A stretch of DNA of 64,000 nt from an uncultured Thiotrichales bacterium. Lineage in GTDB: Bacteria; Pseudomonadota; Gammaproteobacteria; Francisellales; CACEW01. The position numbers are program-made. This document shows, piece after piece, positions 62,101 to 64,000 of the stretch (position 1 is its first letter; each line of letters starts with the position of its first letter). Where the stretch lies: contig CAIQBE010000022.1 of assembly GCA_903870015.1 (NCBI GenBank), forward strand, positions 99-64,098, written 5' to 3'.

Positions 62101-64000
62101 TCTGTTTTCCTAAAGAATAATGGGCTGGTTGCTCGTTCGTCCCTAAAGGGGTGGAGTCCTATATGCATGGCTAAATCCTTTTAAATTTTGTGTTATTATG
62201 ATTGTGGTCCGGTTGGTTTGGTTTTTAAATTATTGCCCTGAGCCTTTGATTATTGAACATCAAAAATTGTTGCTTAATTTAAATCAAACCGTTTGCCAGG
62301 TTTCATTATATTTTTTTATAATTAATTGTCAATCTTTGTTTTTGTAAAATGATTTTAGTGATGGGTTGGGCTGATTGAGGGTGTTGGTGTTATCTATATT
62401 TTTAGATGATTTTTTGGGTAGTTTGGGGTTCTGGCGTGTCTGTCTTGTATTTGGTTCTGGCAATAGCGGAGGCTTTTAACTGCTATTGCCAGGTTTGTAT
62501 TTATAATTCGGCTGAGATGACTCACTGGTGTCCGGTTTAATTTGAAAGCAAGGCGATGCAAGCCAGTATTTTCATTTCTTTCAGTTAATTTCAACCTGTC
62601 GGATGTTTGAATTTGGCTGTAGTTTCGTCACGTACTAAGGACTGCTACCGAACTTAGGCATGCGCCTCCCCCGGCGTCATCCTTCGAATTTTGCGTAGAA
62701 AAATTGCGGAGGATCCAGTTTTTAATAGCATGCAGCGTAGCTGCATTCATTGAGTGGGCAAGGGAGGATTGAATGCAGCTATGCTGCATGCGATTGGGTC
62801 CTGGTTCCTCCGCAAAAATTGCTGCGCAATTTTTCGAAGGATGATGCCGGGGGCCGCATGTCTGGGTTCTGCGGGAGTCTTTACTATTTATCAAAAGCTT
62901 GAGCTAACTTTTTAAACCAACCGGACACCAGTGGAGATGACTGCTGATTTTTTTGTATCGGAAGTTTCTGTGCCAAAGACCGTAGCTACTCGATAATGTC
63001 CTCCTCGGCGTAAAGCGCCTAATTCAAAAGGTGTGGATCGCGTAGATAAAGGAGATAGGTTGCTACTAAAGGGTGAGCTGCTTAGAGTTGGGCAGCTATC
63101 TGAGGAGGTTGTGCTTGTGCTCCTTGATCTAATTGAGGCTAAAGTGGCATCATAAGCTTCGGCTGCTGTGCGAGCAGATGCTATAGCTTTATTTTCCTCT
63201 TCGCGAGGTGTTGTTACTGTGCTAGCGATGGCTATAGTTCTGGATCTATGGAGTGATATATTTTGATTGTTGGCGGTGCCGATTGCTAGAGAGTTTCTTC
63301 TGCTGATGCTCTGTAGTTTTTCGTTAAATGCGTTAATTGCGGCATTGATTGTTGTGAGGGCTTCTTGCCAATGATCCTCCAGGCGATTCCCCGTCCTCTG
63401 TTGAATTATCGCCCAGTTTCTTATCCAGTTTTTCACCTCTGTAGCTTTTAGAGGGCCTTCTTGGATGACGGTATTAATGTTATTTTTAATAATCTCTAAG
63501 TCCTCTGGTGTAGAAATCCCGTGGGTAATTCGCTGAGAAGCTTTCCATGCATCGATTATGTTGCAATTAATAATAGCGGAAATGCAAGCTCGTGCTTTTG
63601 TGATAGCCTCGAGCCAATAAGGCTCTAGCTCGCGACCAGTTTCTTTATCAGAGCGATATTCTTGTAGTGCGTTTAACCAGTTATTGATCCCTCTAATTCT
63701 TTTTATATTGGTTGGTTCTGCCATAATTGCACCAATAATAGTATCTGTCATAATCTTCTGATCATCAGGCCTTATGGTTGTGTTGTCTCTATAAATTCGT
63801 TTGCTATTTTTAGATGCCTCTAAGGCTGGTACTAGGCCATATTGTTCGGCTCCGCTAACGATTTCAAAATAGCGCTCTGCCTGTTTTGCTTCTGCTGATC
63901 CATCTCCGAGGTACATAATAACATCCTTGTTTATTATTTTACGTTATTATTATATCATTTTACATTTAAAATGTAAATATATTTTTATTTTTAGTTTTAA

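What the first reader, a model, noticed from the sequence alone, without database searches (positions are those of the whole stretch)
62514..62942. 411-bp non-autonomous transposon with perfect 15-bp TIRs and a 9-bp target duplication, inserted four codons before a gene's stop
**Seen in the sequence.**
- 'gagatgact|cactggtgtccggtt...' (62514-62537) is mirrored by '...aaccggacaccagtg|gagatgact' (62919-62942).
- This is the exact TSD-TIR...TIR-TSD geometry of a transposition event.
- The element has no ORF for a transposase. It carries the second copy of the nested palindrome as cargo or as a nested insertion.
- The host gene (62912-63916, minus strand) now ends '...KSAVIS-TGVRLV*', with the last six codons read from the TIR.
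- Removing the element and one TSD copy restores '...KSAVIS-AEL*'.
- A third, solo TIR-like sequence, 'tggtccggttggtttggtttttaaa', lies at 62205-62230.

**Established knowledge.** A 9-bp TSD is typical of several IS families, for example IS1, IS4 and some IS256-like elements.

**Inference.** The event is recent, so an autonomous partner IS should exist elsewhere in the genome.
Basis: partly seen in the sequence, partly recalled or inferred. Interest (0 to 1): 0.6.

Follow-up and report, generated by a model that had tools for sequence, protein, structure and literature searches.

The report
IS4-family MITE carrying a nested hairpin repeat
This is a real 411-bp non-autonomous transposon derived from an IS4-family insertion sequence, with a second hairpin repeat nested inside it, that rewrote the last few codons of an orphan gene; it is a clean example of an ordinary kind of element.

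Summary
A perfect 9-bp direct repeat (GAGATGACT) flanks perfect 15-bp inverted ends (CACTGGTGTCCGGTT) around a 411-bp element with no transposase.

The same terminus, with 0-2 mismatches, bounds about 1.3-kb IS4-family insertion sequences in other bacteria. These include a Polyangium MAG IS, ISPosp4 and ISGme2. It also bounds 172-bp and 299-bp MITEs. Every one with both junctions readable has a 9-bp target duplication. The element is therefore an IS4-derived MITE (IS4Sa-type ends CA------T), not IS1 or IS256.

The inner "nested palindrome" is a separate repeat family of 229-246 bp. It has stand-alone copies and 3-bp flanking repeats (GTT, ACT).

A second, left-truncated copy of the composite (93.7% identity over 332 bp, identical inner junctions) lies between pyk and clpB, probably in the same genome. 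A related species has that site empty. So the hairpin inserted first and the composite then spread.

Not shown: that the event is recent, or that an autonomous partner exists in this genome. The genome is in neither DNA collection, and about 115 kb of its DNA holds no transposase. No empty-site allele of the host gene exists in public data.

Verdict: a new member of a known kind, of low to moderate interest.

The parts
62514..62522 (.). Left copy of the 9-bp target-site duplication, GAGATGACT
   Evidence: Read; identical to 62934-62942.
62523..62548 (+). Left terminal inverted repeat. It is perfect over 62523-62537 (CACTGGTGTCCGGTT) and imperfect to 62548. It is of the type found upstream of the transposase gene (IRL).
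   Evidence: The first 25 nt nearly match the transposase-upstream ends of the ISs in L008 and L019 (CACTGGTGTCCGGTTTATTTGAAG).
62523..62933 (+). Composite MITE, 411 bp. It consists of a 162-bp IS4-type MITE backbone, the 246-bp nested hairpin element and its 3-bp duplication.
   Evidence: single-stranded DNA fold -108.3 kcal/mol, z -13. A second copy lies at the pyk|clpB locus.
62634..62636 (.). ACT, left copy of the 3-bp repeat flanking the nested element
   Evidence: The same junction is present in L024/L027.
62637..62882 (.). Nested long-hairpin repeat, copy B, 246 bp. Each arm holds a small palindrome, ATGCAGC-GTA-GCTGCAT.
   Evidence: Stand-alone relatives occur in the window (copy A), L025 and L026.
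62883..62885 (.). ACT, right copy of the 3-bp repeat flanking the nested element
62908..62933 (-). Right terminal inverted repeat. It is perfect over 62919-62933. It contains TTA (TAA on the minus strand) that now stops the host ORF. On the plus strand it keeps ...TTT TAA (F*), as at the transposase 3' end of related ISs.
   Evidence: relatives' transposases end NQL[IN]LF[DN][FY]*.
62934..62942 (.). Right copy of the 9-bp target-site duplication, GAGATGACT
62912..63916 (-). Host ORF, 334 aa, an orphan. Its last six codons and its stop are supplied by the MITE end.
   Evidence: no homologue other than itself; cluster of one member.
62200..62219 (+). Probable solo relic of a right-end-type terminus, GATTGTGGTCCGGTTGGTTT
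   Evidence: I5; 13-mer, 0.03 expected by chance. No further homology.
62457..62492 (.). Perfect 11-bp stem hairpin lying 8 nt beyond the pre-insertion stop codon (62501-62503). It is possibly the gene's original 3' hairpin, now about 420 bp from the new stop.
   Evidence: Read. Its role is inferred only.
34800..35034 (.). Stand-alone copy A of the hairpin repeat (34803-35031, 229 bp), flanked by GTT on each side
   Evidence: RNA fold -160.6 kcal/mol, z -20.

Best explanation
[quoted passage not shown] It derives from an IS4-family insertion sequence of the ISPosp4/ISGme2 type, with IS4Sa-like ends.

Its 162-bp backbone is the two ends of such an IS with the transposase gene deleted. A separate 246-bp hairpin repeat later inserted into that backbone, duplicating ACT. 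The composite was then moved in trans by an IS4-type DDE transposase that recognises the CACTGGTGTCCGGTT ends. Integration across a 9-bp staggered cut gave the GAGATGACT duplication.

It landed in the 3' end of an orphan gene. There it replaced ...AEL* with ...TGVRLV*, using a stop codon built into the element's end. It also pushed the gene's former 3' hairpin about 420 bp downstream.

Shown: the anatomy, the family of the ends, the 9-bp rule, the independence of the inner repeat, and a second composite copy with an empty orthologous site in a relative.

Inferred: cut-and-paste mobilisation in trans (from what is established for IS4-family elements such as IS10 and IS50), and any effect on expression.
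For: - **Anatomy.** Perfect 15-bp TIRs, a perfect 9-bp TSD and no transposase.
- **Same terminus on an autonomous IS.** In a Polyangium MAG, L008 444-1768 is a 1325-bp element with TSD CCACCGCTT. Its 396-aa transposase scores 283.6 bits on NCBIfam NF033592 (IS4 family) and matches Pfam DUF4372 plus DDE_Tnp_1. It carries the YREK motif (YKSRWQVELFFKWIK, read).
- **Named relatives.** That transposase is 74% identical to ISPosp4 and 54% to ISGme2. ISPosp4 has ends CAGTAGTGTCCGGTT and TSD AGATTCGAT. ISGme2 has right end CACTACTGTCCGGTT and TSD AGTGGAATA.
- **Short elements with the same ends and 9-bp TSDs.** L005, 299 bp, ATATTTGAT. L017, 172 bp, GTATTCCAC.
- **Published signature.** The IS4Sa subgroup has ends CA------T and direct repeats of 8-10 bp (PMC2266710, Table 1). 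Here the ends are CACTGGTGT and the TSD is 9 bp.
- **The inner repeat is independent.** Stand-alone copies occur at window 34803-35031, L025 and L026. The two copies with intact ends have 3-bp flanking repeats, GTT and ACT.
- **A second composite copy.** It matches MITE positions 82-411 at 93.7% over 332 bp. It has identical ACT junctions and the right end AACCGGACAGCAATG. It lies between pyk and clpB on contigs from the same samples, and its proteins occur in the same NCBI/JGI sources.
- **Empty site in a relative.** L035, 85% identical over the pyk gene, has the pyk and clpB stops overlapping.
Against: - No autonomous IS4-type transposase was found in the window or in about 50 kb of other contigs from the same population.
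- The genome itself is absent from the genome and metagenome DNA collections. Copy number and the presence of a partner are therefore unknown.
- The second copy lacks its left 81 bp, its left TIR and any TSD, so its arrival by transposition is inferred.
- No empty-site allele of the host gene exists. The protein cluster has a single member, and a 75%-identical relative lacks the whole gene.
- Internal homology to a parent IS is limited to about 25 nt at each end.
Confidence: 0.9

Rival explanations
1. The element is a MITE of another family with a 9-bp duplication, such as IS1, the IS903 group of IS5, or IS256. These were the first reader's alternatives.
For: A 9-bp TSD alone does not discriminate between these families (general knowledge of IS families).
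Against: The 15-bp terminus is identical or nearly identical to the ends of elements that encode IS4-family transposases. No element of another family with these ends was recovered by either collection scan.
Confidence: 0.02
2. The whole 411 bp is one original element whose internal palindrome is native cargo, not a nested insertion of a second repeat.
For: Both known copies of the outer element carry the palindrome with the same junctions. No palindrome-free copy of this particular backbone has been seen.
Against: The palindrome occurs alone, without the backbone, at three other places: window copy A, L025 and L026. It is bounded by its own inverted ends and, in the two copies with intact ends, by 3-bp direct repeats. 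Relatives' MITEs of 172 and 299 bp lack it.
Confidence: 0.06
3. The element is an old, immobile insertion now retained for a host function. For example, its very stable hairpin could end or stabilise the host gene's transcript and insulate the promoter of the downstream gene.
For: The insertion is fixed and 100% identical in the three metagenome assemblies that reach the site. The fold is extremely stable. A 12/12 sigma-70-like promoter for the downstream gene lies at 62332..62305 on the minus strand. The two family copies are 6.3% diverged.
Against: The perfect TIRs and TSD show no decay. There is no expression data. This reading is compatible with the MITE origin rather than an alternative to it.
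Confidence: 0.25
4. The inverted ends and flanking repeat are a chance or assembly artefact.
For: None beyond the fact that the sequence comes from a metagenome-assembled contig.
Against: The identical sequence occurs in three independently assembled contigs. The chance expectation is about 1e-6. The ends match a known IS group.
Confidence: 0.01

Closest known systems
ISPosp4 (Polaromonas sp. JS666 plasmid 2) and ISGme2 (Geobacter metallireducens plasmid), IS4 family with IS4Sa-type ends
   Same: The terminal sequence matches: 13/15 identical to ISPosp4's ends and to ISGme2's right end, and 15/15 to a related IS in a Polyangium MAG. The TSD is 9 bp. The ends follow CA------T. The stop codon lies next to the right inverted repeat.
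   Different: The window element has no transposase gene and is 411 bp rather than about 1.32 kb. Only about 25 nt at each end are alignable. It carries a foreign nested repeat. Assignment of ISPosp4 and ISGme2 to the IS4Sa subgroup rests on the published end and direct-repeat signature, not on a tree made here.
Chunjie MITE of Geobacter uraniireducens Rf4 (Chen et al. 2008, as summarised in PMC3184786 and PMC10969869)
   Same: It is a bacterial MITE with 9-bp direct repeats, a size of 178-235 bp (the backbone here is 162 bp), very stable folds, and copies that overlap protein genes. Its host genus also carries ISGme2-type elements.
   Different: Chunjie has 21-bp TIRs. Its sequence could not be obtained, so relatedness is untested. 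No nested second repeat is described for it.
QMITE2 and its GTAG REP core in Coxiella burnetii (PMC5896051)
   Same: This comparison concerns the inner hairpin repeat only. Both are highly stable hairpin repeats that come in longer and shorter versions. Both contain a GTAG-bearing small palindrome (GCGTAGC here). Both lie at the 3' ends of genes, and both are involved in nesting with other mobile elements.
   Different: QMITE2 is 150-190 bp with 7-11-nt direct repeats. The repeat here is 229-246 bp with 3-bp flanking repeats. In Coxiella the IS inserts into the repeat, whereas here the repeat sits inside a MITE. No sequence comparison was possible, and a blastn search of plasmids found nothing.

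Membership tests
MITE (generic definition) | Small size (under about 600 bp) with no transposase ORF | tested here: met
   411 bp. ORF list. No tblastn similarity to IS4 transposases.
MITE (generic definition) | Terminal inverted repeats flanked by a target-site duplication | tested here: met
   TIR 15/15 and TSD 9/9.
MITE (generic definition) | TIRs shared with an autonomous IS | tested here: met
   L008 IS ends match 15/15 and 14/15. ISPosp4's ends and ISGme2's right end match 13/15. All of these are in other organisms.
MITE (generic definition) | Multiple copies in the same genome | tested here: inconclusive
   One further truncated copy lies at pyk|clpB, on contigs from the same samples and sources. 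One probable solo end lies at 62200.
MITE (generic definition) | Autonomous partner in the same genome | not testable with these tools
   The genome is absent from both DNA collections. No partner was found in about 115 kb examined.
IS4 family, IS4Sa-type ends (De Palmenaer et al. 2008, PMC2266710) | Ends 5'-CA------T | tested here: met
   CACTGGTGT at both ends, compared with Table 1 of the paper.
IS4 family, IS4Sa-type ends (De Palmenaer et al. 2008, PMC2266710) | Direct repeats of 8-10 bp | tested here: met
   9 bp here and in five relatives with both junctions readable on one record. A sixth 9-bp duplication can be reconstructed from L010 plus L018.
IS4 family, IS4Sa-type ends (De Palmenaer et al. 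2008, PMC2266710) | DDE transposase with the Y-(2)-R-(3)-E-(6)-K motif | tested here: met
   This does not apply to the MITE itself. The autonomous relative L008 scores 283.6 bits on NF033592, matches DDE_Tnp_1, and contains YKSRWQVELFFKWIK.
IS4 family, IS4Sa-type ends (De Palmenaer et al. 2008, PMC2266710) | Transposase clusters phylogenetically with IS4Sa rather than the IS4, IS231 or ISH8 subgroups | not tested
   No reference set of subgroup transposases was available. The paper's supplements hold no sequences for these ISs.
Coxiella QMITE2 (for the inner repeat) | 150-190 bp with 7-11-nt direct repeats | tested here: not met
   The repeat is 229-246 bp with 3-bp flanking repeats, GTT and ACT, against the description read.
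Coxiella QMITE2 (for the inner repeat) | GTAG REP core | tested here: inconclusive
   GCGTAGC/GCTACGC is present in copies A and L025. Copy B pairs GCGTAGC with GCTATGC. The L024 copy has GAGCAGC and L026 has GCCTAGC. The motif is short.
Coxiella QMITE2 (for the inner repeat) | Sequence homology to CbsR16/QMITE2 | not testable with these tools
   No QMITE2 sequence is held in the paper's supplements. The plasmid blastn search found no match.
REP/REPIN mobilised by a RAYT transposase (for the inner repeat) | A RAYT (Y1 transposase) gene in the genome, and paired inverted REPs | not testable with these tools
   Paired inverted small palindromes are present. The genome could not be searched for a RAYT gene.

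The most novel reading that the evidence does not exclude
The 229-246-bp hyper-stable hairpin repeat may be an undescribed mobile repeat family of an uncultured freshwater gammaproteobacterium. It has its own inverted ends and a 3-bp duplication. Protein-level traces suggest variable numbers of nested layers. In design it resembles Coxiella QMITE2 and REPINs. On this reading it has hitch-hiked into an IS4-type MITE, so that one transposase now spreads two unrelated repeats as a single composite.
Probability: 0.25. Interest if true: 0.4.

Novelty: new member of a known kind. Interest (0 to 1): 0.27.

Why it matters
It is a clean, fully resolved example of three things:
- A MITE edits the C-terminus of a gene and supplies the new stop codon.
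- Two unrelated repeats become nested and then travel together.
- A 15-bp transposon terminus is conserved across several bacterial phyla, in myxobacterial, KSB1, Geobacter and Betaproteobacteria records. That terminus allows a MITE in an unculturable organism to be assigned to its parent IS group.

Practically, the terminus CACTGGTGTCCGGTT plus a 9-bp TSD is a usable search key for this IS4 subgroup and its MITEs. No new mechanism is implied.

Tried and rejected
- **Genome-collection scan for the terminus.** The window's own locus was not hit, so the genome is not in the collection and copy number could not be counted. The five hits, which I first took for chance, included a complete IS and a MITE.
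- **Metagenome scan and viral scan.** No copy from this organism was found. The metagenome scan gave more members of the IS group; the viral scan gave nothing.
- **Empty site at the host gene.** The host protein has no homologue and its cluster has a single member. An exact look-up of the protein failed. Three assemblies that reach the site carry the insertion, with the overlapping sequence 100% identical. A relative at 75% identity loses synteny right after rplS.
- **Remnants of transposase coding sequence.** tblastn found nothing significant in or near the MITE, in the window, or in the related contigs. Only the terminal ...F* codons resemble a transposase 3' end.
- **Was the pyk C-terminus at the second locus built from a degraded TIR?** Rejected. 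...VGQVV is conserved in relatives, including one whose site is empty.
- **Does the solo end at 62200 extend into an older degraded MITE?** No. A local alignment was no better than shuffled sequence.
- **RNA families.** Rfam gave only sub-threshold hairpin look-alikes.
- **Plasmid searches.** blastn with the hairpin and with the MITE's left arm gave no match and one insignificant hit respectively.
- **Published sequences.** QMITE2 and Chunjie sequences could not be obtained.
- **Host-protein annotation.** PDB and PHROGs searches returned nothing useful.

Full report
**1. The observation**

The sequence reads ggct|GAGATGACT|CACTGGTGTCCGGTT...AACCGGACACCAGTG|GAGATGACT|gctg.
- The direct repeat is 9/9, at 62514-62522 and 62934-62942.
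- The inverted ends are 15/15, at 62523-62537 and 62919-62933. They continue imperfectly to 26 nt.
- The element is 411 bp.
- The 15-mer has no other match in the window, even at three mismatches.
- By my own arithmetic, a perfect 15-bp inverted pair within 3 kb that is also flanked by a 9-bp direct repeat is expected about 1e-6 times in 64 kb.
- The same sequence is found at 100% identity in three independently assembled metagenome contigs, so it is not an assembly artefact.

The host ORF (62912-63916, minus strand, 334 aa) now ends KSAVIS-TGVRLV*. Its last six codons and its stop are read from the right end of the element. Deleting the element and one repeat copy restores KSAVIS-AEL*, with the stop at 62501-62503. 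A perfect 11-bp-stem hairpin at 62457-62492 follows 8 nt after that stop.

**2. What the outer element is**

A scan of 185,579 species genomes for the terminus plus four subterminal bases returned five loci. About four hits are expected by chance, but two of the five are plainly elements.
- In a Polyangium MAG (L008), the ends CACTAGTGTCCGGTT...AACCGGACACCAGTG bound 1325 bp flanked by CCACCGCTT on both sides.
- Inside is a 396-aa protein that scores 283.6 bits on NCBIfam NF033592 (IS4 family transposase). It carries Pfam DUF4372 and DDE_Tnp_1 and the motif YKSRWQVELFFKWIK, which is Y-2-R-3-E-6-K (read).
- In a KSB1 MAG (L005), the same ends bound a 299-bp element without a transposase, flanked by ATATTTGAT.

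The metagenome scan added more members.
- L017 holds a 172-bp element with TSD GTATTCCAC.
- L018 and L019 hold two further elements of about 1.3 kb. Several other hits end at contig edges.
- L018's mismatched flanks are explained by L010. L010 carries CTTCAAACC at a left junction, matching L018's right flank. This suggests assembly across IS copies.

tblastn of the L008 transposase against plasmids gave 74% identity to the annotated "IS4-like element ISPosp4 family transposase" and 54% to ISGme2. In those records the elements are as follows:

| Element | Length | Ends | 9-bp TSD |
|---|---|---|---|
| ISPosp4 | 1328 bp | CAGTAGTGTCCGGTT | AGATTCGAT |
| ISGme2 | 1314 bp | right end CACTACTGTCCGGTT | AGTGGAATA |

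The published IS4 classification gives subgroup IS4Sa ends as CA------T and direct repeats as 8-10 bp (PMC2266710, Table 1). The window element fits both (CACTGGTGT, 9 bp). I did not make a transposase tree, so the subgroup label rests on that signature.

The MITE's left end matches the transposase-upstream end of the L008 and L019 ISs over about 25 nt. The comparison is CACTGGTGTCCGGTTTAATTTGAAAG against CACTGGTGTCCGGTTTATTTGAAG. Its right end keeps ...TTT TAA next to the repeat, where the relatives' transposases end ...LF[DN][FY]*. Beyond this there is no detectable homology, as expected for a deletion derivative.

**3. What the inner palindrome is**

The window has a second copy at 34803-35031. 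It is 229 bp, 92% identical over the 183-nt core, and folds as RNA at -160.6 kcal/mol with z = -20. That copy lacks any of the MITE backbone.

To find more copies, I searched the protein database with a profile of the open frames that run through the hairpin. Six spurious "proteins" came back. Their contigs gave the following:
- Stand-alone copies in L025 (97.7% to copy A) and L026.
- Protein-level traces of longer versions with extra nested layers (P0020, P0021, P0023).

The two copies with intact ends are flanked by 3-bp direct repeats at homologous boundaries. Copy A has GTT|CAAGACTGC...GCAGTCTTG|GTT. Copy B has ACT|AAGGACTGC...GGAGTCTTT|ACT. The chance of this is about (1/64)^2, but it rests on only two independent cases. 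L025 has degraded ends and shows no such repeat.

Each arm contains a small perfect palindrome, ATGCAGC-GTA-GCTGCAT. The design therefore recalls REP/REPIN elements and the GTAG-REP core of Coxiella QMITE2 (PMC5896051). However, QMITE2's size (150-190 bp) and direct repeats (7-11 nt) do not fit, and no sequence comparison was possible.

**4. Order of events, and a second composite copy**

Contigs L023, L024 and L027-L029 carry a 332-bp match to MITE positions 82-411 at 93.7% identity, between the stop codons of pyk and clpB. These contigs come from the same samples that yield the window's locus.
- The match includes the hairpin, both ACT junctions unchanged, and the right end AACCGGACAGCAATG.
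- The left 81 bp, the left TIR and any TSD are missing.
- The exact Pyk, NadB and SucC proteins of these contigs occur in NCBI and JGI records on a 41,154-bp contig. The sources match those of the window's 64,105-bp contig. The two copies are therefore probably in one genome, though this was not proven.

Because the inner junctions are identical at both loci, the hairpin inserted into the backbone first and the composite then multiplied.

Two relatives 85% identical over the pyk gene lack the composite.
- In L035 (GCA_964758605.1) the pyk and clpB stops overlap. This is an empty site.
- In L034 the site holds weak hairpin fragments and a Transposase_31/Rpn-like gene.

The idea that pyk's last codons came from a decayed TIR was rejected, since ...VGQVV is conserved, including in the relative with the empty site.

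**5. What could not be shown**

- The window's genome is in neither DNA collection. No IS4-type transposase occurs in the window or in about 50 kb of further contigs. A resident autonomous partner is therefore untested.
- "Recent" is not established. The perfect TIRs and TSD are compatible with it. But the two copies differ by 6.3%, the insertion is fixed and identical in all three assemblies that reach the site, and no empty-site allele exists among public proteins.
- A relative at 75% identity loses synteny immediately after rplS and lacks the host gene altogether. The MITE therefore sits in a lineage-specific region.
- The solo end at 62200-62219 shares an exact 13-mer with the right end (0.03 expected by chance). 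It has nothing alignable beyond that. It is a probable relic and nothing more.

**6. Mechanism and consequence**

By analogy with characterised IS4-family elements (IS10 and IS50, from established knowledge), a DDE transposase supplied in trans would bind the two ends, excise the element and integrate it across a 9-bp staggered cut. This step is inferred.

The consequences that are shown are these:
- Three C-terminal residues are swapped for six.
- A new stop codon is donated by the element.
- About 420 bp of extremely structured DNA (-108 kcal/mol as single-stranded DNA, z = -13) now lies between the gene and its former 3' hairpin.
- This insertion lies upstream of a 12/12 sigma-70-like promoter at 62332..62305, which faces the next gene.

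Whether any of this changes expression is unknown.

**7. Verdict**

This is a genuine, well-preserved MITE of an IS4-family group, carrying a nested second repeat. It is a new member of a known kind. The nested hairpin family is the less ordinary part and is only partly characterised here.

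Noticed in passing
window 62912-63916 (-): The host ORF is a complete orphan: it has no homologue among 5.8 billion clustered proteins. 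It nevertheless scores 29 bits (E 1.5e-6, just above the 26.5-bit cutoff) on Pfam REV1_C, a eukaryotic DNA-repair interaction domain, at residues 121-196.
   Followed up: partly
window 61277-64000 compared with L033: Synteny with a relative at 75% identity (Band_7-purA-mrp-dcd-rplS) stops right after rplS. The 281-aa ORF (no Pfam hit), the MITE and the host ORF form a lineage-specific block near the end of the contig.
   Followed up: partly
L034 4435-5483: In a related species the pyk|clpB junction holds weak fragments of the hairpin repeat and a 314-aa Transposase_31/Rpn-like (PF04754) gene. The same junction is empty in L035 and holds the composite MITE in L027-L029. It looks like an insertion hot spot.
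   Followed up: partly
P0020, P0021, P0023 (contigs without DNA available): Spurious ORFs from other copies of the hairpin repeat show internal duplications, such as KDDA..SSLKDDAGKGLCSSL. This suggests longer versions with additional nested arms. P0023 comes from a 244-kb JGI contig and is more diverged.
   Followed up: no
window 62305-62332 (-): A perfect 12/12 sigma-70 consensus (TTGACA, 16-nt spacer, TATAAT) faces the 281-aa ORF at 61323-62168. A mirror 11/12 site lies on the plus strand at 62293-62322.
   Followed up: no
window 17014-17087: A perfect 25-bp inverted repeat, CGAGCTTTTTTACAGTCGTCAAGGT, whose arms are separated by 24 nt. It is unrelated to either repeat family studied here.
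   Followed up: no
L010, L016 and L018 (JGI metagenome contigs): Flanks of one IS4-type IS do not pair within contig L018. They do pair across contigs: CTTCAAACC lies left of the IS in L010 and right of it in L018. This suggests chimeric assembly across IS copies.
   Followed up: partly
L025 4015-4818 and neighbours; contig of P0020: Contigs of the same population encode U-box, ankyrin-like, several APH/choline-kinase-like and Bro-N proteins. This gene content is reminiscent of intracellular Legionellales-type bacteria. The organism's taxonomy was not determined.
   Followed up: no
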